A DNA stretch of 64,000 nucleotides. It comes from Candidatus Eiseniibacteriota bacterium. Lineage in GTDB: Bacteria; Eisenbacteria; RBG-16-71-46; DASYSL01. Within the stretch, counting starts at the first letter, position 1; each line of letters begins with the position of its first letter. Shown here piece after piece: positions 25,266 through 36,088 of the stretch. The notes under the pieces were generated by a model. That model ran no database searches. It was not told the DNA's origin and saw only the letters and a program-made list of their open reading frames with translations. Where the stretch lies: positions 15,764 to 79,763 of the forward strand of contig JANPEF010000061.1 of assembly GCA_031431875.1 (NCBI GenBank). The letters run 5' to 3'. The position numbers and the translations under genes were made by a program.

Positions 25266-27959
25266 ATGGGAATGACGCATTGCGTTCGTCGTCATCAATC
25301 GTACGTCGCAGTCGCGATCGCCGCGGGTTCGCTCGCGTGGGCCGCGCTCGGCGGGGCGGTCGCAGCGGTGGGCGCACCGGCTGCGGCGCCCGTCGACTCG
25401 GCCGGGACGGTGGGCAGCCGACTGGGCCGCGCTGTCGTGCCGCTGTCGCAGAAGGTCGAACTCCGCCTCGACCCCGCGTCCCCGGACTACAGCGGCTCGA
25501 CCACGATCTCGATCGAGGCAGCCGCGCCGTTCCGTTCGCTGCGCGTGCACGCGAGGGAGCTGTCGGTCGAGACGATCCTGCTCGCGGGCGGCCTCGTGCA
25601 CGTCGCGCCGAAGTGGGCCAGCGAGACGGACGGGACGATCCGTATCACCTTCAGCGAGCCCGTGCCGGCGGGGATCTACCTGCTCACGCTGCGCTTCCGC
25701 AACGACTTCAACACGCAGGCCACGAGCCTGTACCGCCTCAAGGCCGGCGACGACTGGTACTGCTTCACGCAGTTCGAGGCGACCGACGCGCGCGAGGCCT
25801 TCCCGTGCTTCGACGAGCCCGAGTTCAAGATCCCGTGGGACCTCGAGCTGACCATTCCGGGCGGGCACAGCGCGGTCGCGAACACGCCGATCGTCTCGAG
25901 CGCCCCGGCCGGCGACGGTTGGACGAAACACGTGTTCAAGCGCTCGAAGCCCATGCCGACCTACATCCTGGCGATCGCCACCGGGCCGCTCGAGATGACG
26001 CCGATCGAGGGCATGTCGATTCCGGGCAACGTTGTGACGGTGAAGGGGCAGGCGACGCTCACCGCCGAGGCGAGGCGCGTCGCGCCGCCGATCCTCGCCG
26101 CGCTCGAGGCCTACTTCGGGCGCCCGTATCCCTACGAGAAGCTCGACCTGCTCGCGGTGCCCGAGTTCTGGCCCGGCGCCATGGAGAACGCGGGCGCGAT
26201 CACGTTCGCCGATGGCGTGCTGCTGCTCGATGACAAGACGGCGACCGTCTCGATGCGGCGCTCGCTGGCGTCGATCACGGCGCACGAGCTCGCGCACATG
26301 TGGTTCGGTGACCTGGTGACGATGAAGTGGTGGGACGACCTGTGGCTCAACGAGTCGTTCGCCTCGTGGCTGGGCGAGAAGGTGACCCACGGCGTGTACC
26401 CGGAGTTCGGGATCGAGGACCGCCTCGTGCTCGACGCGGACGAAGCGATGCTGGTCGACGGTCGACTGAGCACGCGCGCGGTCCGCCAGCCCGTCAAGAG
26501 CCTCGACAATCTCCTGCAGTCGGCCGATGCCCTTGCATACCAAAAGGGACAGACGGTCCTCGGCATGTTCGAGCAGTGGCTGGGCCCCGACGTGTTCCGG
26601 GCCGGCGTGCGCGACTACATCTCTCGCCATGCGTGGGGGAACGCCGTGGCGGACGACCTGTGGTCGGCGCTGTCGCGCTCGGCGAAGAAGGACGTGGGTG
26701 GCTCGATGGGCACGTTCCTCAACCAGCCCGGGCTCGCGCTCGTCGGGGCCGAGCCGCTGCCGGGCGGCCGGGTGCGCCTCACGCAGTCGCGCTTCCTGCC
26801 GGCCGGAACGGTCGCGCCGACACCCCAGCGCTGGTCGATCCCGGTCACGCTCAAGTATGGCGGGGCGAGCGGGGCGGCGAAGACGAAGAGCGTGCTGCTC
26901 TCCGCGCCGACGCAGGTCGTCACGCTCGAGCCGGGGGTGAAGTGGGTGTACCCGAACGGGCGCGCCTGGGGCTACTACCGCTGGAAGATGCCCGACGCCT
27001 CGATCACCGCGCTGGTCGAGCGGGCCAGCACCTCCCTCGAGTTGCGCGAGCGCATGGAGCTGACCACCAATGCAGCGGCCTTGCTCGACGCCGGTGCGAT
27101 GCCTGGCGACACCTACCTGCGCCTGCTCGAGAAGCTGGCCGCAGACGAGGAGCCCGCCGTGGTCGGCGCGGTGCTCGACGGGATGGAGAAGGTGAAGCAG
27201 ACGTTCATCACGCCCGAGGTCGAGCCCGCCTATGCCGCGTACGTCCAGCGCGCGCTCGCGCCGGCGGTGGATCGCTTCGGCCTGACGAGGCAAGCGGGCG
27301 AGCAGGAGTCGGTGTCGTTCATCCGCGGGCGCCTGCTCGGCATGCTCGCCGACGAGGGTCGCGACCCCCGCGCGCGCGCCTACGCCGACTCGCTGGCGCA
27401 GGCGTACCTGGCCGACGTGACGAGCGTCGATCCGTCGCTTGCGTTCACGTCGCTGCAGGTCGCCGCCATGGACGGGGATCCCGCGCTGTGGGAGACCTAT
27501 CGCACGCGCTTCGAGTCGGCGCCGAACCCCGGCGAGCGGCGCAACTTCCTTGCGGCGCTGGGCTCGTTCCGCTCCCCGCCGCTGCGCCAGAAGTCACTCG
27601 ACTACGCGCTCGCCGGCCCGCTCCGGCCGCAGGAGGTGCTGGCCGTCCCGCGCGCCATGGGCGGCGCCTCCGAGGAGGGCCGGGAAGCGCAGTTCCAGTG
27701 GGCGATGCAGAACTACGATGCGATCATGAAGCGCGTGCCACCCATGTTCGCAGTGTTCATGCCGTTCGTCGGATCCGGCTGTTCCGGCGACCGGCTCACG
27801 GCGACGCAGTCGTTCTTCGCCGATCCGGCGCACGCGCCTCCGGGCACCGAGAAGGAACTGGCAAAGGTGACCGAAACGGTCGAGGACTGCATGAAGCTGC
27901 GGGCGCGCGAAGGTCCGCGCGTGCGCGAGTTCCTGCAGCGAGGTCCGGTTGCGAACTAG
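25266..27959 (+). CDS. pepN: M1-family aminopeptidase N
   Basis: GAMEN exopeptidase motif and HELAHMWFGD-(18)-E zinc site (WLNESFASW); signal peptide; ~897 aa. Confidence 0.85.
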   Translation: MGMTHCVRRHQSYVAVAIAAGSLAWAALGGAVAAVGAPAAAPVDSAGTVGSRLGRAVVPLSQKVELRLDPASPDYSGSTTISIEAAAPFRSLRVHARELSVETILLAGGLVHVAPKWASETDGTIRITFSEPVPAGIYLLTLRFRNDFNTQATSLYRLKAGDDWYCFTQFEATDAREAFPCFDEPEFKIPWDLELTIPGGHSAVANTPIVSSAPAGDGWTKHVFKRSKPMPTYILAIATGPLEMTPIEGMSIPGNVVTVKGQATLTAEARRVAPPILAALEAYFGRPYPYEKLDLLAVPEFWPGAMENAGAITFADGVLLLDDKTATVSMRRSLASITAHELAHMWFGDLVTMKWWDDLWLNESFASWLGEKVTHGVYPEFGIEDRLVLDADEAMLVDGRLSTRAVRQPVKSLDNLLQSADALAYQKGQTVLGMFEQWLGPDVFRAGVRDYISRHAWGNAVADDLWSALSRSAKKDVGGSMGTFLNQPGLALVGAEPLPGGRVRLTQSRFLPAGTVAPTPQRWSIPVTLKYGGASGAAKTKSVLLSAPTQVVTLEPGVKWVYPNGRAWGYYRWKMPDASITALVERASTSLELRERMELTTNAAALLDAGAMPGDTYLRLLEKLAADEEPAVVGAVLDGMEKVKQTFITPEVEPAYAAYVQRALAPAVDRFGLTRQAGEQESVSFIRGRLLGMLADEGRDPRARAYADSLAQAYLADVTSVDPSLAFTSLQVAAMDGDPALWETYRTRFESAPNPGERRNFLAALGSFRSPPLRQKSLDYALAGPLRPQEVLAVPRAMGGASEEGREAQFQWAMQNYDAIMKRVPPMFAVFMPFVGSGCSGDRLTATQSFFADPAHAPPGTEKELAKVTETVEDCMKLRAREGPRVREFLQRGPVAN

Positions 27960-28723
27960 CGGTAGCCAGCCTTGATGCGGCCCCACGTCGCCGGAACGGC
28001 CGGCGTGGGTGTCTCGTAGGTGATGGTGAGCGCGGGGCGGAGTGTGGGATCCGTCGATTCGCGGGAGTCGAACTTCTTGACCGTCTGCGCTATCGCCTCG
28101 TTGCCGCGCAGCAGCCAGCCGTGGTTGCTCGCAGGCTCGTCGAGCCACGCCTGCACGTCGGCGACCAGCCCGGGATTCGACGTCCACACGTAGGTTCCCG
28201 TTGCGTCGACCGCCAGCGTCGCGCTCGCCGCCGCCGCGAAGTCGCCCCCGGCCGCGGCCCAGAGGGATCCCGGGAAGAAGGTGTGCTTCCACGTTGCGTC
28301 GCCGGCCTGTGCCGGCGCGCCGCTGCCACCGGCGATCCCGGCGTCCGAGGCGCCCTCACCCCAGGCGGCGCTCGCGCGGTGCAACCCAACGTTCGCGGCT
28401 CCGGCACTCGTCTGGCTCATGATCAACTCAAGATCGACCGACAGGATCGTCGCGCCGTCGGGAATCGCCGCGGCCACGTTGAACCACAGCAACCCGCGGC
28501 GGATGCTGTTCGTGGCCTGGTTGTTGCGGCCGGCGAAAAAGCTGGTGCCCGCGCCGTTGCTGAGGGATCCAGTAGCGCTCTCGTAGAGCGTATTGTCTTT
28601 CGCCGCGCCGATGACCAGCGTCGTGCCGGCCCGCGCACCCGGAGCGGGAACGAGCAGGGCGACGAGGACGGCGACCAGCCGGGCCGCGGATCGGCCGCCG
28701 CGATGGGCGTGGAACGGGTTCAC
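27956..28723 (-). CDS. Secreted hypothetical protein (beta-rich; possible DNRLRE/choice-of-anchor-like domain, uncertain)
   Basis: GTG start with GAGGAG Shine-Dalgarno 6 nt upstream; signal peptide VNPFHAHRGGRSAARLVAVLVALLVPAPGARA; no catalytic motif recognised. Confidence 0.55.
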   Translation of the reverse strand: MNPFHAHRGGRSAARLVAVLVALLVPAPGARAGTTLVIGAAKDNTLYESATGSLSNGAGTSFFAGRNNQATNSIRRGLLWFNVAAAIPDGATILSVDLELIMSQTSAGAANVGLHRASAAWGEGASDAGIAGGSGAPAQAGDATWKHTFFPGSLWAAAGGDFAAAASATLAVDATGTYVWTSNPGLVADVQAWLDEPASNHGWLLRGNEAIAQTVKKFDSRESTDPTLRPALTITYETPTPAVPATWGRIKAGYR

Positions 28724-28889
28724 GAAATTCTCCTCGAATGGGGTCGCCGGCGACCGATCGGCAGGGGAAGGGCCGACGACGAGTATACAACGCCCCCCCT
28801 TGCGCCCGCACCTGTGGGCGGGGAGAATGCGGCGTCCGGCCGTAGGGCTCGCCGTCCGATCATCCACCCTCCAGCTGTTCTGGGGACCC

Positions 28890-30986
28890 ATGCGCGAAGA
28901 AGACCTGCTCCGCCTCGTCTGGATCACCGATCCGCAGATCGCACCCGCGGGGGATCGCATCGTGTTCGTGCGCGTCATCGTCGACGAGGCGAACGATCGC
29001 TACGCGACCTCCCTGTGGATCGCTGATGCCGCCCTTGGCCGGCCGCGGCCGCTCACCTTCGGGCCCGGCGATGCACAGCCCCGCTGGTCGCCCGACGGCA
29101 CGCGCCTCGCGTTCGTGCGCTCGCCCGAGCCCGGCCAGCCCGCACAGCTGTGGGTGATGCCCATGCGCGGCGGCGGCGAGGCCGTGCGGTTGACCGACCT
29201 GGTGAAGGGCGCGGGATCCCCGGCATGGTCGCCCGACGGCATGCAGATCGCGTTCACCAGCGGCACGAACCCCGAGCTCGACACGCCCGACGCGGAGGCG
29301 AAGAAGCCGAAGAACGCCCCCGGGCGGATCGTCGCGCGGCCCATGGTGAAGCTCGACAACGTGGGTGCGCTCGATCCCGAACACCAGGACCACGTGTGGG
29401 TGGTGGCACTCGCCGTCGACGGCGCCGCCGCTGGAGCGCCGCGCATGCTGACCTGCGGCCGCTTCAACGAGGACGCGCCCGAGTGGTCGCCCGACGGCGC
29501 GGGCGTCTGCTTCGTGAGCGATCGCCGGCTCGCACCGTGGTATGGCCTCGATGATGCGGACGTGTGGTCCGTCGCGGCCGACCGCACGGTCCCGACCGAG
29601 AGCGAGGTCACGCTCGTTGCAGACGTGGCGGGCACCATCGGCCGCTTCACGCTGGGCGCTGACGGTCGCGTGCTCGCGGTGGGGATGCTGACGCAGGAAC
29701 CGCCTCGCTCCTACGACCAGCCCGACGTGTTCGTGTGCGCGCCGCCGTTCCCGCAGCCCACGCCGCACGGGCTCACCCAGGCATACGAGTTCGAGGCGGG
29801 GGACTCGTCGATCTCCTCCGACCAGCACCCGCCCCGGGCGGGCGGCAGCGTTCCGCTGGCGTTCATCGAGGGTGGGGCCGCCGTGCTCACGGTGGTGGGG
29901 CGGCACGGCGCGTGCATCCTGGCGCGCATCGGCGCCGACGGTTCGGTGACCGAGCTCACGCCCGCCGATCGCGAGATCGTCTCGGGCACCGTGTCGGCCG
30001 ACGGGAAGTGCGCCGCGGTGATCGTCGGCTCACCGTCCCGGCCCGGGGTGCTTTGCGCCTGCGACGTGGCGAGCGGCGCGCTGACGCCGTTGTACGACCC
30101 GAACGAGGCACTGTTCACCGAATCGAAGCTGGGGAAGGTCGAGGAGGTCTGGTACCCGTCGTTCGACGGGCAGAAGGTCCAGGGCTGGGTGGTGACGCCG
30201 CCCGGGTTCGATCCCGCGCAGAAGTATCCGCTCGTGCTGCAGATCCACGGCGGTCCGCACGTGGCGTACGGCGTCGGCTTCTTCCACGAATTCCAGGTGC
30301 TCGCCGAGGCCGGCTATGTCGTCCTCTACGTGAACCCGCGTGGCTCGACGACGTACGGGCAGGAGTTCGGCAACGTGATCCAGTTCGAGTATCCAGGCGA
30401 CGACTGGAAGGACCTGATGGCCGGCGTCGACCTGCTGGTCGGCCGCGGCTTCATCGACGCGACGCGGATGGGCGTCACCGGCGGATCGGGCGGGGGGCTC
30501 CTGACCAACTGGACGGTGGTGAACACCGATCGCTTCGCCTGCGCGATCACGCAGCGCTGCGTCGCCGACTGGACGTCGTTCTGGTACGGGGCCGATTTCG
30601 CGCAGTTGACGAACTTCTGGTTCCGCGGCGCGCCCCACGAGGATCCGGCCGACTATGCGCGCCGCTCACCGCTGACGCACGCGGCCCGGGCGAAGACGCC
30701 GCTGCTCGTCGTCCACAGCGAGGACGACTGGCGGACGCCGATCGTTCAGGGGGAGGGGATGTTTCGCGCCATGCTTGCCCAGCGCGTGCCCACGGCGATG
30801 ATCCGCTTCCCGGGCGAGGGCCACGAGCTGTCGCGGAGCGGCGCGCCGTCGCGGCGGGTGCAGAACCAGCGCGTGATGCGCCGCTGGTTCGATCGCTGGC
30901 TCCAGGGCAAGGACGCGCCCGAGTTCGACGATCCGCTGGCCGCGGCACCGGCGCCGCTTCCGGCAGGGGCCCGCGCGAAGGGCTAG
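28890..30986 (+). CDS. S9-family serine peptidase (acylaminoacyl-peptidase-like), second copy, cytoplasmic or unprocessed N-terminus
   Basis: MREEDLLRLVWITDPQIAPAG...; propeller WSPDG repeats; catalytic GGSGGG (Ser), D and H in the C-terminal alpha/beta hydrolase. Confidence 0.8.
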   Translation: MREEDLLRLVWITDPQIAPAGDRIVFVRVIVDEANDRYATSLWIADAALGRPRPLTFGPGDAQPRWSPDGTRLAFVRSPEPGQPAQLWVMPMRGGGEAVRLTDLVKGAGSPAWSPDGMQIAFTSGTNPELDTPDAEAKKPKNAPGRIVARPMVKLDNVGALDPEHQDHVWVVALAVDGAAAGAPRMLTCGRFNEDAPEWSPDGAGVCFVSDRRLAPWYGLDDADVWSVAADRTVPTESEVTLVADVAGTIGRFTLGADGRVLAVGMLTQEPPRSYDQPDVFVCAPPFPQPTPHGLTQAYEFEAGDSSISSDQHPPRAGGSVPLAFIEGGAAVLTVVGRHGACILARIGADGSVTELTPADREIVSGTVSADGKCAAVIVGSPSRPGVLCACDVASGALTPLYDPNEALFTESKLGKVEEVWYPSFDGQKVQGWVVTPPGFDPAQKYPLVLQIHGGPHVAYGVGFFHEFQVLAEAGYVVLYVNPRGSTTYGQEFGNVIQFEYPGDDWKDLMAGVDLLVGRGFIDATRMGVTGGSGGGLLTNWTVVNTDRFACAITQRCVADWTSFWYGADFAQLTNFWFRGAPHEDPADYARRSPLTHAARAKTPLLVVHSEDDWRTPIVQGEGMFRAMLAQRVPTAMIRFPGEGHELSRSGAPSRRVQNQRVMRRWFDRWLQGKDAPEFDDPLAAAPAPLPAGARAKG

Positions 30987-32324: not shown

Positions 32325-33035
32325 ATGAAGCGCTTGTCATTCCTGTCCGCGTTTGCCCTCTTGGCCGCGCCCGCCCTTGCCTTCGCCGCTCCGAATGCCG
32401 GCACCTACCAGACCACCGACCTCGGCGGCCAGCTCCTCACCGGGCGCGCCTCGTCGCACCGGACGGGGATCAACTCCGGCCTGCCGCATGTCCTGCACTC
32501 GCAGTCGTGGAACGGCTCGACGCTCGGCACGCAGTGGGAGTTGCGCTGCGCGGTCGAGAACGCCGCGTTCGGCATCCAGGACAACCGCGTCAACGGCACC
32601 GGCACCATCGTCTACAGCTCGACCTACACCGGCGGCCAGTTCGAGCTGTACAACACCGGCGGCGCCTGGGGTGACGGCGTGGCCGCGCTCGGAACGACGA
32701 GCATCATCTCGACCGTGCAGTTCGTGAACATCAACAACGTCTCGACGCCGGTCGCGTCGGTCGTCAATGCCAACACCTCGGGTGACTTCGGCGGCGGCTG
32801 CGTCCTCACCTTCGCGATCGCGAATGGCGTCGGCGTGGGCGAGACGACGAGCCTCGACGTTTCGATCCAGAAGCCGGCCGACTACCCGACGTTCCTCGCC
32901 GCCAACTGCGGCCTCGCCTTGCCCAACGAGCAGTTCGGCACGTGGGGCACCATGATCACCGGGACGCTGCGCATCGATTGCTCGGTCGACGCAACGACTT
33001 CGACCTGGGGCGCGGTGAAGAACATCTATCGCTGA
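32325..33035 (+). CDS. Secreted S/T/N/G-rich hypothetical protein, low-GC atypical composition
   Basis: GGAGG Shine-Dalgarno then ATG 32325; signal peptide MKRLSFLSAFALLAAPALAFAAP; ends ...TWGAVKNIYR; followed by a strong terminator. Confidence 0.5.
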   Translation: MKRLSFLSAFALLAAPALAFAAPNAGTYQTTDLGGQLLTGRASSHRTGINSGLPHVLHSQSWNGSTLGTQWELRCAVENAAFGIQDNRVNGTGTIVYSSTYTGGQFELYNTGGAWGDGVAALGTTSIISTVQFVNINNVSTPVASVVNANTSGDFGGGCVLTFAIANGVGVGETTSLDVSIQKPADYPTFLAANCGLALPNEQFGTWGTMITGTLRIDCSVDATTSTWGAVKNIYR

Positions 33036-33068
33036 TATGGCATGACCTCTTGTCAAGCTGGTCCACAC

Positions 33069-33102
33069 GCGACCACCGCTCCGGCGGTGGTCGCTGTGTT
33101 TT
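33069..33102 (+). terminator. Rho-independent terminator
   Basis: GCGACCACCGC-tccg-GCGGTGGTCGC (11-bp stem) followed by TGTGTTTTGG. Confidence 0.5.
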
Positions 33103-33330
33103 GGGGAGATGAGCTTCTGGAAGGACGGACGCGGAAGTCGCCGACGGCGTGTCACTCTGATATCCGCGGGTTGCCTCGAAGGATCGGGGCCGAGCCGCAT
33201 GACCGTAGTTCGTCGGGAGGTACCGCAGTCTAGCATCGTGAGTCGGTGGCTCCGGTGAACCGGAGTCCCGTCGCGTAGCGATATCGCGGGTTATCTCACG
33301 CATCATCCCCTCGTCCGTCCATCCTGAAGC

Positions 33331-34452
33331 TCAGCCTTGGGCCTTCGCGGCTTCCGGCCGGGCCAGTGCGGCCCAGAGGAAGCCGGCGAGCTCGCGAGCA
33401 ATCGCGATGACGATCTTGTTGCGGTGCTTGCCTCGAGCCTCCATCTGCCGGAATCGACGACAGAGCCGCTTCTGGGCCCGATCGGCCAGGGCAATCATGG
33501 CCGGCGGCTGGCCAAGCCGCCGGTTCGCCAGGTCCTTGCTGACCCGAGCCTTGTGGCGGTAGTTCCAGGAGCCTTCGATCAGAGTGCGGCGCACGTGCTG
33601 GTTGCCGGCGCGCGTGATCCCGCCGCGGCGATGATGATCTCCACTGCTGGCTTCCGAGGGCACGAGCCCGAGAAAGGCCATGAGCGAAGGAGCAGACGGA
33701 AACCTCCGAACGTCATGAAGCTCCGACAGCAAGATCATGGCGTTCACCGTGTCGATCCCGCGAAAGCAGCGGAGCCAACCGACTCGTTCGCGCCACGGCT
33801 CTCCCTGGGAGATCGCCAGGAGCTCGACATCGAGCGCGGAGCGCTGGGCCTCACGCTGCTCGACCGTGAGCAGGTAGTCCTCGAAGACGATCCGCTCGGA
33901 AGGGCGTTCGAACACCAGGCTCGTGAGCCAGGTCCGATGGGCCTGAGACCACGAGTGTGCTTGCCCCGTGCCGAAGACCAGCCCGTGCCGCAACAGGAAG
34001 TGCGTGAGGCGGTGACGCGCCCGCGTGAGATCGACGCGCGCATCGTCGCGGCAGCGGCACAGATCCCGTACCGCCTCCTCGTCAACGCTCGGAGGATGGA
34101 CTTCGGTCAGAAGCCCTGCGCGAAACAGCTCGGCCAGCTTGCGCGCATCCCTGCGATCGGTCTTGATGCGATCGCCCGGCCGAAGCGGCGTCAGGGACGG
34201 CGCGATCACCGTGCACTCGCAGCCCTGAGCGATCAGATCACGCTGAAGCACGTAACCGCAGGGTCCTGCTTCGTAACAGCAACGAACCGGTCCCTGCGCC
34301 TGGGCCTTGATGCGCTGGACCAACTTGCGGACTTGGGCCGCCTGGTTCGCGATCTGCCCATTCCACGGCTCCCGATCCTGGGGCTTGAGTACGCAAAACG
34401 AGATCGTGTTGCGATGGACATCCAGACCGACGATGGTGCTAGGCTCTTGCAC
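33331..34452 (-). CDS. IS110-family transposase (RuvC-like DEDD N-domain plus Tnp C-domain)
   Basis: GTG start with GGGAG Shine-Dalgarno; VGLDVHRNTISFCVL N-terminus, ...CCYEAGPCGY..., C-terminal ...GLVPSEASSGDHHRRGGITRAGNQHVRRTLIEGSW typical of IS110/IS1111 transposases. Confidence 0.8.
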   Translation of the reverse strand: MQEPSTIVGLDVHRNTISFCVLKPQDREPWNGQIANQAAQVRKLVQRIKAQAQGPVRCCYEAGPCGYVLQRDLIAQGCECTVIAPSLTPLRPGDRIKTDRRDARKLAELFRAGLLTEVHPPSVDEEAVRDLCRCRDDARVDLTRARHRLTHFLLRHGLVFGTGQAHSWSQAHRTWLTSLVFERPSERIVFEDYLLTVEQREAQRSALDVELLAISQGEPWRERVGWLRCFRGIDTVNAMILLSELHDVRRFPSAPSLMAFLGLVPSEASSGDHHRRGGITRAGNQHVRRTLIEGSWNYRHKARVSKDLANRRLGQPPAMIALADRAQKRLCRRFRQMEARGKHRNKIVIAIARELAGFLWAALARPEAAKAQG

Positions 34453-34600
34453 GGCCGGCTCCCTTCGTATGCGGCTCTGCTGCTTCAAGCAGCAAACCGC
34501 GTCAGAGTGGATCAAACCACCCGGTCGTTCCCGGGGTTCCTGGTTGGGAACGACGGTACGAACCGGGGGCCGGTCATGCCATAGGGTCTAGAGTCGGGGC
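34453..34600 (-). ncRNA. Structured 5' non-coding end of the IS110 element; candidate bridge/seek RNA region
   Basis: Several hairpins lie between the transposase start and the neighbouring gene stop: GCTGCTT-c-AAGCAGC, and GTCGTTCCC...GGGAACGAC (9-bp stem). Confidence 0.3.
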
Positions 34601-35320
34601 CTAGTCCGGCAGCGTCGAGACCTTGAACGGCGTCGGCGGAGACGAGGTGACGACCTTGCCGCCTTCGTCCCGGGCGTCCACGCGGACGAGCAGCGCCTGT
34701 CCCGCAACCGGACGGAAGTCGAGTTCGGAGGCCGGCACGTCGAGCGCCGAGTCGCCGCGCACGCTCCGGTATGCCAGCTCTTCGAGGCGGTCCGAGTAGA
34801 CGCGCACCTCGTAGGTGTCGGCGCCCGGAACCGCGTTCCACGAGACGTGCAATCCGTCGACATCGAGCCCGGCCGAGCGGACGCGCAGCATCGGCGCATT
34901 CGCATCGCTCGATCCGCCGCGCAGGACCTGCGATGGATCGTGCTCCGCATGGCGCGGCCACAGAACGACCCCGCCCACCACGATTGCCGCCACCACGAGC
35001 CCCAGCGCGGGCCGCAGTGCCGGCGCGAACAGCGCGGCCCACCACGAGGTGCGCGGCGTCGCGCGTAACGGCGCGTGGGGTGCAGGGTCGGGTTCGGAAG
35101 GCGCGCCGATCGTCCGCGCCAGGAACGCCGACAGCCGGGCGTCCGCCGCCGCGACGTCCGGCAGCGCGGCGTCGGCGCCGGGATCCATGAACCGGGCGTA
35201 GGCATCGAGCAGCGCGCCGCAGCGCGGGCACTGCGCGACGTGGGCGCGGCGCGGATCCGTCGCCGGCAGCTCGGCGACCGTGGCCAGTTCCTCGACCGGC
35301 ATGCAGGGCGTGACGGTCAC
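34601..35320 (-). CDS. Anti-sigma factor: zinc-finger N-domain, one transmembrane helix, periplasmic FN3-like domain
   Basis: GTG overlapping the sigma stop (GTGA), alternative ATG at 35302; CPRCGALLDAYARF zinc-finger anti-sigma motif; transmembrane segment WWAALFAPALRPALGLVVAAIVVGGVVLW. Confidence 0.6.
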   Translation of the reverse strand: MTVTPCMPVEELATVAELPATDPRRAHVAQCPRCGALLDAYARFMDPGADAALPDVAAADARLSAFLARTIGAPSEPDPAPHAPLRATPRTSWWAALFAPALRPALGLVVAAIVVGGVVLWPRHAEHDPSQVLRGGSSDANAPMLRVRSAGLDVDGLHVSWNAVPGADTYEVRVYSDRLEELAYRSVRGDSALDVPASELDFRPVAGQALLVRVDARDEGGKVVTSSPPTPFKVSTLPD

Positions 35321-35898
35321 GGCGTTCTCCCTGCGAGCGCGGTGCGGAGCTTGCGCCGGGCGCGCTGCAGGAGTGCGCGTGCCCCGGTCGCATTGTCGAG
35401 CCTCATCACGACCGTGATCTCCTCGACGGGCAGTCGCTCGAAGCAGCGCAGCCACAGCGCTTCCCGTTCCTCGGGATCGAGAGTGTCGGCAAGCAGCTGG
35501 CGCAACGCTATCTCATCCTGCAGCTCCCCCAGCATCCGTTCCGGGGTGCCGTCCGTCGCCGGCAGCGTCTCGAGCTCGACGTCGTCGTCGCGCAGCAGGC
35601 CCGGCGCCGCGAGTTCGTTCAGGCAACGATTGCGCGCGATCGCGAAAAGCCACGAGCCGAAGAGCGCCCGGCCCTGGAACGAGCCCAGGGCGCGCCACGC
35701 CCGCAGCAGCACCTCCTGCGCCAGTTCGAGCGCTCGTTCCGGATCCCGCACGTAGCGGTGACACCACACGTACACCCGACGCTGGTAGCGCCCGAGCAAC
35801 GCCGAAGCCGCGGCCCGCCCGCCCGCCCCGTCGGGATCGGCGGCGTGGCGGGCGAGGAACTCGTCGTCGGTCGGCTCGGGGCGCGGGGCCTCGCTCAT
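35317..35898 (-). CDS. ECF (sigma-70 family group 4) RNA polymerase sigma factor
   Basis: Region 2 (YVWCHRYVRDPERALELAQEVLLRAWRAL) and region 4 (LPVEEITVVMRLDNATGARALLQRARRKLR). Confidence 0.8.
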   Translation of the reverse strand: MSEAPRPEPTDDEFLARHAADPDGAGGRAAASALLGRYQRRVYVWCHRYVRDPERALELAQEVLLRAWRALGSFQGRALFGSWLFAIARNRCLNELAAPGLLRDDDVELETLPATDGTPERMLGELQDEIALRQLLADTLDPEEREALWLRCFERLPVEEITVVMRLDNATGARALLQRARRKLRTALAGRTP

Positions 35899-36088
35899 CG
35901 GATAGGAACGGCTCCAGGGCCGGAAATCACAGGCGGCGGGCCGGGACGGGGCAGGCGACCGGTAGCGGACAGCGTAAGCCGTGGCGCCGCAAACGGGAAG
36001 GGGCCCGTCCGGTTTCGCTTGTCGCGCCCGAAAGCGCCCCGTACCGTGCGGGTCGCGCGGCGCATCGTGCCGCCGCAGGGAGGACGCC

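What the first reader, a model, noticed from the sequence alone, without database searches (positions are those of the whole stretch)
33106..34600. IS110-family insertion with highly structured non-coding ends: candidate bridge/seek-RNA-guided recombinase
A lone DEDD-type IS110 transposase (33331..34452, minus strand) sits between a strong terminator at 33069..33102 and the stop of an anti-sigma gene at 34601. The element's two non-coding ends are packed with hairpins.

Left end, upstream of the transposase, 148 nt:
- GCTGCTTcAAGCAGC, a 7-bp stem.
- CGGTCGTTCCC...GGGAACGACGG, a roughly 9-11-bp stem.

Right end, downstream of the transposase, 225 nt:
- CTCCGGTgaaCCGGAG, a 7-bp stem.
- GCGATATCGC, a short palindrome.
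- A near-perfect direct repeat, GATATCCGCGGGTT at 33159..33172 and GATATCGCGGGTT at 33280..33292.

IS110/IS1111 elements encode a non-coding bridge (seek) RNA in exactly such end regions. It base-pairs with both target and donor DNA. The direct repeat could represent donor-core and target-core copies.

The insertion lies immediately beside a low-GC, S/T/N-rich secreted-protein gene (32325..33035). That is consistent with a horizontally acquired islet.
Basis: partly seen in the sequence, partly recalled or inferred. Interest (0 to 1): 0.7.

Follow-up and report, generated by a model that had tools for sequence, protein, structure and literature searches.

The report
IS1111-type insertion sequence with bridge RNA
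This is an intact, probably still mobile insertion sequence of the known IS110/IS1111 kind: its downstream non-coding end holds a two-loop guide ("bridge"/"seek") RNA whose loops match the element's own ends and its target, the last two codons plus stop codon of a family of secreted-protein genes. It is a clean example of a known mechanism, not a new one.

Summary
The element runs 33034..34589 (1556 bp), not 33106..34600. It includes the "terminator" hairpin and a perfect 12-bp sub-terminal inverted repeat.

The 373-aa transposase has both IS110 Pfam domains. Its DEDD residues and Ser-Gly motif are intact.

A 99.4 % identical copy and about 16 copies at roughly 90 % DNA identity or less (transposases 72-92 % identical) sit in other flanks. 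Every one with the right junction on its contig abuts a gene ending (T/S)WGxxKxxYR-stop. An uninterrupted orthologue ends TAC CGC TAG. So insertion is at a CT/AG core inside the stop codon, and the element supplies a new TGA.

The downstream 297-nt end holds a conserved RNA with two internal loops.
- **Target loop:** its two strands match the two strands of the target.
- **Donor loop:** one strand matches the right-end tip plus core. The other weakly matches the left-end tip.

Across 54 relatives these segments covary with each element's own flanks (z = 17, 15 and 11). Helices show compensatory changes.

The upstream end is a conserved 5'UTR fold that pairs the inverted repeat with the ribosome-binding site and start codon. 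It carries no guide signal.

Verdict: new member of a known kind. The "acquired islet" idea is not supported.

The parts
33034..34589 (-). The whole insertion sequence: 1556 bp, counting one copy of the core dinucleotide.
   Evidence: Homology among 18 independent copies breaks at these points. The uninterrupted orthologue L099 loses homology at window 33033.
33032..33033 (.). Core dinucleotide at the right junction (CT on +, AG on the transposase strand). C is the last base of the Arg codon. T is the first base of the stop codon.
   Evidence: AG is found at both junctions in 41 of 49 related elements. The empty sites read TACCGC-TAG.
34588..34589 (.). Second copy of the core (left junction). 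The AG at 34590-34591 (+) is the remnant of the original TAG stop codon.
   Evidence: The predicted pre-insertion sequence is ...ATCTATCGC-TAG-AGTCGGGGC-CTA...
33331..34452 (-). Transposase (bridge recombinase) gene. GTG start, 373 aa. DEDD = D11, E61, D99, D102. Catalytic Ser-Gly = S270-G271, within GLVPSEASSG.
   Evidence: PF01548 7e-20 and PF02371 4e-19. NF033542 'IS110 family RNA-guided transposase' scores 236.7 bits against a cut-off of 140. The residues are invariant or nearly so in 38 homologues. They align to ISCro4, and IS621 defines the motif.
33036..33047 (.). Right-end sub-terminal inverted repeat (GGTCATGCCATA on the transposase strand).
   Evidence: It is 12/12 complementary to 34572-34583 (I10). 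The same architecture occurs in about 60 relatives.
34572..34583 (.). Left-end sub-terminal inverted repeat (TATGGCATGACC on the transposase strand).
33110..33333 (-). Predicted bridge/seek RNA (about 224 nt). It is closed by a 25-nt long-range stem, 33309-33333 with 33110-33134, that includes the transposase stop codon.
   Evidence: Inverted repeat I1 is 88 % complementary. Fold z = -4.0. The closing stem shows compensatory changes. A profile of this end finds it behind about 80 related transposases.
33219..33300 (-). Target-binding module, an internal loop between two helices. Outer helix: 33286-33289 with 33223-33226. Inner helix: 33271-33275 with 33237-33241. A variable hairpin lies at 33249-33266.
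   Evidence: Consensus of 29 diverse sequences. The outer helix has 3 of 4 pairs with compensatory change. 91 % of cells pair, against 25-45 % when partners are slid.
33276..33284 (-). Segment A, AUAUCGCUA. It is identical to the gene-sense strand of the target (TAT CGC TA) and would pair with the transposase-sense strand across right flank, core and one base.
   Evidence: It matches the window's own target at 8 of 8 bases. It reads CTA in copies whose target stop was TAG and CTG where it was TGA. In 54 relatives the longest match to the element's own target averages 6.70 nt, against 4.77 +/- 0.12 permuted, z = 16.9.
33228..33236 (-). Segment B, AUGCUAGAC. It holds the left target flank (CU), the core (AG) and the first two bases of the left end (AC). 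The last part resembles a handshake guide.
   Evidence: It reads TCAGAC in the copies whose left junction is TC-AG-AC. Its contiguous match to the element's own left flank averages 2.57 nt, against 0.87 +/- 0.12, z = 14.6.
33141..33217 (-). Donor-binding module. Outer helix: 33211-33215 with 33142-33146. Inner helix: 33195-33198 with 33166-33169. A variable hairpin lies at 33173-33190.
   Evidence: The hairpin has 3 pairs with compensatory change. The outer helix is almost invariant.
33155..33164 (-). Segment D, GAUAUCAGAG. It is identical to the tip of the right end plus the core (ATATC-AG).
   Evidence: It follows the right-end tip in relatives: ATATCAG, ATAGCAG, ATATGAG, ATACTAG, ATCCTAG, ATATCAA. 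Match 2.92 against 2.01 +/- 0.08, z = 11.
33199..33208 (-). Segment C, CUACGGUCAU. It is a weak candidate guide for the left-end tip: GGUC would pair with G-ACC.
   Evidence: Its last 2-5 bases follow the bottom strand of the left-end tip in relatives, z = 4.4. An unanchored search gave no signal. It does not follow the centre of the inverted repeat.
33069..33104 (+). Terminator-like hairpin plus T-tail inside the element. It is oriented to stop transcription entering from the target gene.
   Evidence: The hairpin is kept with compensatory changes, and a T-rich tail is kept on the + strand, in the 72-73 % lineages. Function is inferred.
33051..33056 (-). Perfect TTGACA, 3-4 nt inside the right-end inverted repeat. 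Its role is unknown.
   Evidence: It is conserved across the family. No -10 lies at a usable spacing in either the inserted state or the predicted circle junction (and by reading the sequence).
34453..34587 (-). Left end, the 5'UTR of the transposase. It has three local hairpins inside a long-range helix (34567-34577 with 34451-34462) that pairs the inner half of the inverted repeat with the Shine-Dalgarno sequence (34459-34466) and the start codon.
   Evidence: Fold z = -4.9. In 15 relatives there are 39 pairs, 15 with compensatory change. No target-matching signal.
32325..33035 (+). Target gene, encoding a 236-aa secreted protein ending TWGAVKNIYR. Its present TGA stop is a hybrid: T from the target, GA from the element.
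27956..27985 (-). An unoccupied site of the same kind in the window: ...TGGGGCCGCATCAAGGCTGGCTACCGCTAG, the end of a DNRLRE-domain protein gene.
   Evidence: The pattern has 2 matches, against 0.03 expected. Sequence, domain.

Best explanation
Positions 33034..34589 are an intact insertion sequence of the IS110 family, IS1111 group.

**Shown**
- It encodes a DEDD/Ser recombinase.
- It has 12-bp sub-terminal inverted repeats, a short left end of 137 nt and a long right end of 297 nt.
- It sits inside the stop codon of a gene ending ...Tyr-Arg-stop. All 13 other independent copies whose right junction is on the contig (of the 17 fetched) sit at the same kind of site.
- The target reads TAY-CGC-TAG or TAY-CGC-TGA. 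The crossover is at the dinucleotide CT (AG on the transposase strand), which spans the last Arg base and the first stop base.
- The element's right end supplies GA, so the gene keeps a stop codon (TGA).

**Shown by comparison**
- The right end holds a conserved RNA of about 224 nt with two internal loops.
- In the 5' (target) loop, the 5' strand is identical to the gene-sense strand of right flank plus core. The 3' strand is identical to the opposite strand of left flank plus core, plus two bases of the element's left tip.
- In the 3' (donor) loop, the 3' strand is identical to the right-end tip plus core. The 5' strand weakly matches the left-end tip.
- All of these segments change together with the flanks or ends of each related element.

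**Inferred from IS621 and ISEc11**
- The element excises as a circle that joins ...CCATATC-AG-ACCCTATGG...
- The RNA bound to a recombinase tetramer pairs one loop with this junction and the other with TAYCGC-TAG.
- Strands are exchanged at the core through a phosphoserine intermediate.

**Inferred from structure only**
- The left end is a 5'UTR fold that hides the ribosome-binding site and start codon.
- The internal hairpin with a T-tail terminates the host gene's transcript.
For: **Transposase identity and integrity**
-; the IS621 residues are defined.

**Ends and mobility**
- A 99.4 % identical copy lies in different flanks.
- 18 copies were aligned, with homology breaking at the same bases.
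- The inverted repeat is perfect at 12 nt.
- The same LT|AG|ACNNT-ATGG...CCAT-ATC|AG|RT architecture appears in about 60 relatives.

**Target**
- All 14 occupied sites (the window's and 13 others) with the right junction on the contig end (T/S)WGxxKxxYR*.
- An uninterrupted 88 % orthologue ends TACCGCTAG, and homology stops at the T.
- An unoccupied paralogous site lies in the window.

**Guides**
- Segment A against the element's own target: z = 16.9. Against the right flank alone: z = 7.7.
- Segment B against the left flank: z = 14.6. Segment D against the right-end tip: z = 11.
- Segments A and B switch together with the TAG or TGA type of target among close copies.

**Structure**
- 26 pairs were tested. 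91 % of cells pair, against 25-45 % when slid. 12 pairs show compensatory change, and 0 of 500 shuffles reach the observed covariation score.

**Match to published descriptions**
- The order of the matches (complement of the top strand lies 5' of the complement of the bottom strand) and the location downstream of the gene fit the IS1111 group.
Against: - No expression data exist. No sigma-70-like promoter was found in the region, so how the RNA is made is unknown.
- Rfam has no matching family.
- Recognition of the left-end tip is weak (z = 4.4 anchored, 0.7 unanchored). The outer helix of the donor loop is invariant, so it is untested by covariation.
- The left-flank guide covers only about 2 bases beyond the core in this lineage. 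Those bases are constant within a lineage. That they belong to the target rather than to the element rests on the stop-codon argument and on two empty sites.
- The empty orthologue (L099) is not syntenic downstream, so no exact 'before' sequence of this locus was seen.
- In the window lineage an alternative helix (GCGUGAG with CUCACG) competes with the family-consensus inner helix.
- The transposase is 373 aa, longer than the 330-350 aa quoted for IS1111 transposases.
Confidence: 0.88

Rival explanations
1. The structured downstream end is only a 3'UTR with protein-binding sites (transcript stabiliser, terminator, transposase-binding sites). The short matches to target and ends are chance or shared ancestry. 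Target choice would then be made by the protein.
For: - No expression data exist and Rfam gave no hit.
- Several conserved blocks (CCCGACG, GGTCATGC, AGTGAC) are invariant, as protein-binding sites would be.
- The left-flank match is only about 2 nt in this lineage.
Against: - The variable segments track each element's own flanks: z = 16.9, 14.6 and 11 against permuted pairings. The right flank alone, which is clearly host DNA, gives z = 7.7.
- The antisense of the RNA and the upstream end give almost no signal (z = 2.1, 1.4 and -0.2).
- Experiments on ISEc11, ISPa11 and ISKpn4 show that such RNAs are essential.
Confidence: 0.05
2. The guide RNA is encoded in the upstream (left) end, as in IS110-type elements such as IS621. 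Alternatively, both ends contribute guides.
For: - The upstream end is strongly structured (z = -4.9).
- Its structure is conserved with 15 compensated pairs.
- A few IS1111-like elements have long non-coding regions at both ends.
Against: - The upstream end shows no excess match to the target on either strand (z = 1.4 and -0.2).
- Its main long-range helix covers the Shine-Dalgarno sequence and start codon, which fits translational control.
- All four guide-like segments lie downstream.
Confidence: 0.04
3. The downstream region encodes a small protein. An ORF in the transposase frame, 33306 down to 32956, is stop-free in most relatives.
For: - The homologous frame has no stop in 25 of 29 diverse sequences.
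- A gene caller placed a 96-aa ORF there in L003.
Against: - The ATG is not conserved. Relatives read CACGAT where the window reads GATGAT.
- Sequence lengths differ by non-multiples of three.
- In the window the ORF runs out of the element into the antisense of the host gene.
- Variation is concentrated in the guide segments and in compensated stem pairs, not at third codon positions.
- Stop-free frames are common at about 65-70 % GC.
Confidence: 0.02
4. The copy is a dead or domesticated relic that no longer moves.
For: - There is only one copy in the 64-kb window.
- Only one distant relative was found among species-representative genomes.
Against: - The ORF is full length with all catalytic residues.
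- The inverted repeats are perfect.
- The guides match this copy's own junctions.
- A 99.4 % identical copy with an identical transposase lies in different flanks.
- Many relatives sit on contigs of about 1.5-2 kb, as repeats do in metagenome assemblies.
Confidence: 0.06

Closest known systems
ISEc11, ISPa11, ISKpn4 and ISPst6 (IS1111 family) and their seekRNA (Siddiquee et al. 2024, PMC11187229)
   Same: - DEDD transposase, sub-terminal inverted repeats and a long non-coding region downstream of the gene.
- The RNA carries one segment complementary to the top strand 5' of one complementary to the bottom strand, and the two overlap at the insertion point.
- No target duplication.
- The 82-nt target module here is the same size as the 82-96-nt short seekRNAs.
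   Different: - The transposase is only about 40-42 % identical to the nearest named enterobacterial elements, ISSso6 and ISEc45. It is also longer, 373 aa against 330-350.
- Terminal extensions beyond the repeats total 8 bp (6+2, 5+3 or 4+4, depending on where the crossover in AG is drawn). The quoted values are 7+3 or 6+3.
- The target is a protein-coding gene end including its stop codon, not one of the targets I recall for this group (REP elements, attC sites, transposon inverted repeats). That comparison rests on my own knowledge.
- Nothing here was tested experimentally.
IS621 bridge RNA and recombinase (Durrant et al. 2024, PMC11208160; Hiraizumi et al. 2024, PMC11208158)
   Same: - The RNA has two internal loops, one for the target and one for the donor. 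Each loop reads both DNA strands around a shared core dinucleotide (CT, which is AG on the other strand).
- Two bases after the target guide match the donor, like the handshake guides.
- DEDD plus Ser-Gly catalytic residues.
   Different: - The RNA lies downstream of the gene, not upstream. The order of the strand matches is reversed.
- The inverted repeats are long (12 bp against 2-3 bp).
- The left-flank guide is very short (about 2 nt beyond the core), and the left-end guide is weak.
- Protein similarity is remote (E = 2e-6).
ISPa11, ISCARN28 and ISAzs32-type predicted IS1111 bridge RNAs (Durrant et al., Fig. 6 and Extended Data Fig. 10)
   Same: The bridge RNA is predicted in the right end. 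The donor-binding bases lie in a less regular loop than in IS621.
   Different: Rfam 15 returned no match.

Membership tests
IS110 family (DEDD/Ser bridge recombinase elements) | Transposase with DEDD_Tnp_IS110 (PF01548) and Transposase_20 (PF02371) domains | tested here: met
   E = 7e-20 and 4e-19, both above the cut-offs. NF033542 scores 236.7 bits against a cut-off of 140.
IS110 family (DEDD/Ser bridge recombinase elements) | Catalytic D-E-D-D and Ser-Gly present | tested here: met
   D11, E61, D99, D102 and S270-G271 are present. They are invariant or nearly so in 38 homologues. They align with ISCro4, and the IS621 residues are defined.
IS110 family (DEDD/Ser bridge recombinase elements) | Site-specific insertion with a shared core dinucleotide and no target duplication | tested here: met
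   14 occupied sites carry the same motif. AG is present at both junctions. The empty sites read TACCGCTAG.
IS1111 group | Sub-terminal inverted repeats of 7-17 bp | tested here: met
   12/12 at 33036-33047 and 34572-34583. Relatives have 9-14 bp.
IS1111 group | The longer non-coding region lies downstream of the transposase gene | tested here: met
   297 nt downstream against 137 nt upstream, using the ends set.
IS1111 group | C-terminal motif GL-P----S/T-G | tested here: met
   GLVPSEASSG at residues 262-271. The motif is defined.
IS1111 group | Terminal extensions of 7 (or 6) bp on the left and 3 bp on the right beyond the repeats | tested here: inconclusive
   Here the extensions are ACCC plus TC plus one shared AG, 8 bp in all (6+2, 5+3 or 4+4), against 9-10 bp. 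This is a descriptive feature, not a strict criterion.
IS1111 group | Transposase of 330-350 aa | tested here: not met
   373 aa. The published range is descriptive, taken from ISfinder entries.
Bridge RNA / seekRNA | Structured RNA region in the long non-coding end, conserved with the transposase | tested here: met
   Fold z = -4.0. A profile finds it behind about 80 relatives. 12 of 26 pairs are compensated.
Bridge RNA / seekRNA | Segments matching both strands of the target around the core, covarying with the target | tested here: met
   Segment A gives z = 16.9 and segment B gives z = 14.6. Both switch with TAG or TGA targets.
Bridge RNA / seekRNA | Segments matching both sides of the donor (circle) junction | tested here: inconclusive
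   The right-end guide (segment D) is clear, z = 11. The left-end guide (segment C) is weak, z = 4.4 anchored with no unanchored signal.
Bridge RNA / seekRNA | The RNA is expressed, binds the recombinase and is required for transposition | not testable with these tools
   No transcript or biochemical data are available. No sigma-70-like promoter was found.

The most novel reading that the evidence does not exclude
This may be an undescribed IS1111-group lineage, from Eisenbacteria-like soil and sediment bacteria, adapted for harmless homing into gene ends.
- Its bridge RNA is programmed for the last two codons plus stop codon of many unrelated secreted-protein genes. These genes share an undescribed C-terminal tag, TPxxPx(T/S)WGx(I/V/L)KxxYR-COOH.
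- The element rebuilds the stop codon.
- It brings a terminator facing the host gene.
- It keeps its own translation shut by pairing its inverted repeat with its ribosome-binding site.

The tag itself could be a new sorting signal.
Probability: 0.55. Interest if true: 0.45.

Novelty: new member of a known kind. Interest (0 to 1): 0.32.

Why it matters
The mechanism is not new. RNA-guided IS110/IS1111 recombination has been known since 2024, and bridge RNAs are predicted for about 90 % of such elements.

The value here is as a well-resolved natural example from an uncultured, 71 %-GC lineage:
- exact ends, core, target logo and a four-segment guide map;
- about 80 related loci that give a ready covariation data set for IS1111-type bridge RNAs, whose donor loop is less understood than that of IS621.

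Two further points are worth recording. The target is a coding-gene end whose stop codon the element restores. A shared C-terminal protein tag also came to light that no family library recognises.

Tried and rejected
- **Rfam.** Rfam 15 in permissive mode over 32900-34800 gave only two chance-level hits.
- **Species-representative genomes.** The scan found one relative, 44 % identical, so closer copies had to come from metagenome contigs.
- **Segment C as a guide for the inverted repeat.** In the window GGTCATGC equals the repeat. I rejected the idea because the segment stays GGTCATGC in relatives whose repeats differ.
- **Left-end guide.** An unanchored search gave no signal (z = 0.7).
- **Circle-junction promoter.** TTGACA is conserved, but the only -10-like hexamer (TATGGC) would be 23 nt away, and the promoter scan found none.
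- **Hairpin presenting segment A in its loop** (CGCG/CGCG, the single-sequence fold). The family covariation favours the outer helix 17-20 with 82-85 instead (GC to UA in 5 sequences).
- **Small-ORF reading**. Rejected; see the rival explanations.
- **Guide RNA in the upstream end.** Rejected.
- **P0021 context.** The sample file was too large, so no DNA was returned.
- **C-terminal tag.** Pfam and NCBIfam gave no hit. A literature search on Eisenbacteria C-terminal sorting found nothing relevant.
- **ISfinder.** It could not be queried, so the element has no family name beyond the nearest annotated relatives.
Full report
**What is there**

The minus-strand ORF 33331..34452 starts with GTG, six bases after GAAGGGAG. 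It encodes a 373-aa protein with both IS110-family domains: PF01548 at 7e-20 and PF02371 at 4e-19. It scores 236.7 bits on NCBIfam NF033542, 'IS110 family RNA-guided transposase', against a cut-off of 140.

In an alignment of 38 homologues at 58-92 % identity, D11, E61, D99, D102 and G271 are invariant. S270 is nearly so. These residues align with the DEDD and Ser-Gly positions of ISCro4. In IS621 the equivalent residues D11, E60, D102, D105 and S241-G242 form the active site. The gene is therefore intact.

The window holds one copy only.

**Where the element ends**

The database holds the identical protein on another contig (L002). That contig is 99.4 % identical to the window from 34593 down to 33004 and unrelated beyond.

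Sixteen further copies, with transposases 72-92 % identical, were fetched and aligned. On the transposase strand all begin (flank)-CT/TC-AG-ACC(C/A)-TATGGCATGACC. All end GGTCATGCCATATC-AG-CG(G/A)TA...

The 12-nt repeat TATGGCATGACC / GGTCATGCCATA is perfect in the window, at 34572-34583 and 33036-33047 (I10).

**The target**

Past the right end, every copy whose contig reaches that far (14 sites) runs into the 3' end of a convergent gene. The products differ from each other except for the tail ...TP.xP.(T/S)WGx(I/V/L)Kx.YR-stop.

The window has a second gene with this tail, unoccupied, ending GGC TAC CGC TAG at 27956. An 88 %-identical orthologue of the window's target gene in another genome (L099) is uninterrupted and ends AAC ATC TAC CGC TAG. 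Its homology to the window stops at 33033, the T of the stop codon.

The only reading that gives every target gene a stop codon is this. The target is TAY-CGC-TAG, or TAY-CGC-TGA in the lineages whose left junction reads TC-AG. The crossover is in CT (AG on the transposase strand). The element is 33034..34589. The AG at 34590-34591 is the rest of the old stop codon, and the present TGA is T from the host plus GA from the element.

The core AG stands at both junctions in 41 of 49 relatives.

**The downstream RNA**

The 297-nt right end folds better than shuffles (z = -4.0). It is closed by a 25-nt stem that includes the stop codon of the transposase (I1). That stem shows compensated changes.

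A sequence profile of this end finds a homologous region behind about 80 transposases that are only 41-60 % identical. From 29 diverse members the consensus is two modules, each an internal loop between two helices.

I tested a hand-drawn version of that structure:
- 91 % of cells pair, against 25-45 % when partners are slid.
- 12 of 26 pairs have compensatory changes.
- No shuffle out of 500 reaches the observed covariation score.

The outer helix of the first loop (33286-33289 with 33223-33226) has GC to UA and CG to GC exchanges. The outer helix of the second loop is invariant, so it is untested.

**The guides**

Four single-stranded segments carry the information.

| Segment | Coordinates | Sequence | What it equals |
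|---|---|---|---|
| A | 33276-33284 | AUAUCGCUA | gene-sense strand of the window's own target (TAT CGC TA) |
| B | 33228-33236 | AUGCUAGAC | left flank CT + core AG + first two bases of the left end |
| D | 33155-33164 | GAUAUCAGAG | right-end tip ATATC + core |
| C | 33199-33208 | CUACGGUCAU | weakly, the bottom strand of the left-end tip (GGUC against G-ACC) |

Among close copies, segments A and B read CTA and CTAGAC where the target stop was TAG. They read CTG and TCAGAC where it was TGA.

Across 54 non-redundant relatives with different targets:

| Comparison | Observed | Permuted | z |
|---|---|---|---|
| 5' part of RNA vs own target, longest exact match | 6.70 nt | 4.77 +/- 0.12 | 16.9 |
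| Same, right flank alone (undoubtedly host DNA) | 5.24 nt | 4.42 +/- 0.11 | 7.7 |
| Segment B vs own left flank | 2.57 nt | 0.87 +/- 0.12 | 14.6 |
| Segment D vs own right-end tip | 2.92 | 2.01 +/- 0.08 | 11 |
| Segment C vs left-end tip, anchored | 2.09 nt | 1.70 +/- 0.09 | 4.4 |
| Left-end tip (bottom strand) vs whole RNA, unanchored | 4.91 nt | 4.85 +/- 0.08 | 0.7 |

Segment D shows variants such as ATAGCAG, ATATGAG, ATACTAG, ATCCTAG and ATATCAA that follow the end.

Controls are flat. The antisense of the RNA gives z = 2.1. The upstream end gives z = 1.4 and -0.2.

The arrangement agrees with what Siddiquee et al. and Durrant et al. describe for IS1111-type elements. The complement of the top strand lies 5' of the complement of the bottom strand, the two overlap at the core, and the RNA is downstream of the gene.

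**The upstream end**

The 137-nt left end folds well (z = -4.9). In 15 relatives it keeps 39 pairs, 15 of them with compensated changes.

That helix pairs the inner half of the inverted repeat (34567-34577) with the Shine-Dalgarno sequence and start codon (34451-34462).

I read this as translational control of the transposase. That is an inference. The region has no guide signal.

**Other features of the element**

The hairpin 33069-33094 has its T-tail on the plus strand. It keeps a T-rich tail on that strand in diverged lineages. It would therefore stop the target gene's transcript as it enters the element. This too is inferred.

A perfect TTGACA sits 3-4 nt inside the right repeat throughout the family. 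I could not find a partner -10 in the inserted or the circular configuration.

**What is not supported**

The flanking gene is not a low-GC islet. It is 66.8 % GC against 71 % for the window. It has hundreds of homologues, several labelled Candidatus Eisenbacteria. It is the target, not cargo.

Rfam gave no hit. That says only that no curated model fits.

A stop-free frame runs through the RNA in 25 of 29 relatives. It lacks a conserved start and runs out of the element, so I do not think it is a gene.

**Comparison and verdict**

By every defining feature I could test, this is a member of the IS110 family, IS1111 group, carrying a bridge/seek RNA. The departures are minor: a longer transposase (373 aa), shorter terminal extensions (8 bp in all against 9-10), and a nearest named relative at only about 42 % identity (ISSso6).

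Expression, RNA-protein binding and RNA dependence could not be tested.

It is a new member of a known kind. The natural-history detail is the most interesting part: homing into the stop codon of genes that share a C-terminal tag, with the stop codon restored.

Noticed in passing
window 33006-33035 (+) and 27956-27985 (-); target-gene ends in L002-L005, L087, L088, L090-L092, L094-L096: Otherwise unrelated secreted proteins share a C-terminal tail, ..TP.xP.(T/S)WGx(I/V/L)Kx.YR-stop. No Pfam or NCBIfam model hits it. It looks like a short C-terminal sorting tag specific to this (Eisenbacteria-like) lineage.
   Followed up: partly
window 33051-33056 (-): A perfect TTGACA lies 3-4 nt inside the right-end inverted repeat and is conserved in nearly all relatives. 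No -10 hexamer lies 16-18 nt away in either the inserted state or the predicted circle junction, so its role is unexplained.
   Followed up: partly
L009, L012, L061, L066, L085 (right junctions): These relatives show AA instead of AG at the right junction, while their left junction and the donor guide in their RNA say AG. Possible causes are insertion at a mismatched core or a later mutation.
   Followed up: no
window 33237-33243 with 33294-33300 (-): In the window's own lineage GCGUGAG can pair perfectly with CUCACG. That would compete with the family-consensus inner helix of the target loop. It may be an alternative, inactive fold or a lineage-specific extra helix.
   Followed up: partly
window 34590-34603: Before the insertion, the target gene's TAG and the stop codon of the convergent gene (34601-34603) would have been only 9 nt apart, with no terminator between them. 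The uninterrupted orthologue in L099 has its own terminator hairpin after TAG (L099 1355-1385).
   Followed up: no
window 27959-28978 (-): The gene carrying the unoccupied target site encodes a DNRLRE-domain protein (NF033679, 1.8e-16).
   Followed up: no
window 34601-35320 (-) and about 35317-35900 (-): The upstream gene is an ECF-type sigma factor (Sigma70_r2, 1.6e-16).
   Followed up: partly
metagenome contigs: Most contigs carrying relatives of this transposase are 1.3-2.5 kb, about the length of the element. That suggests they are multi-copy repeats that break assemblies in soil and sediment metagenomes.
   Followed up: no
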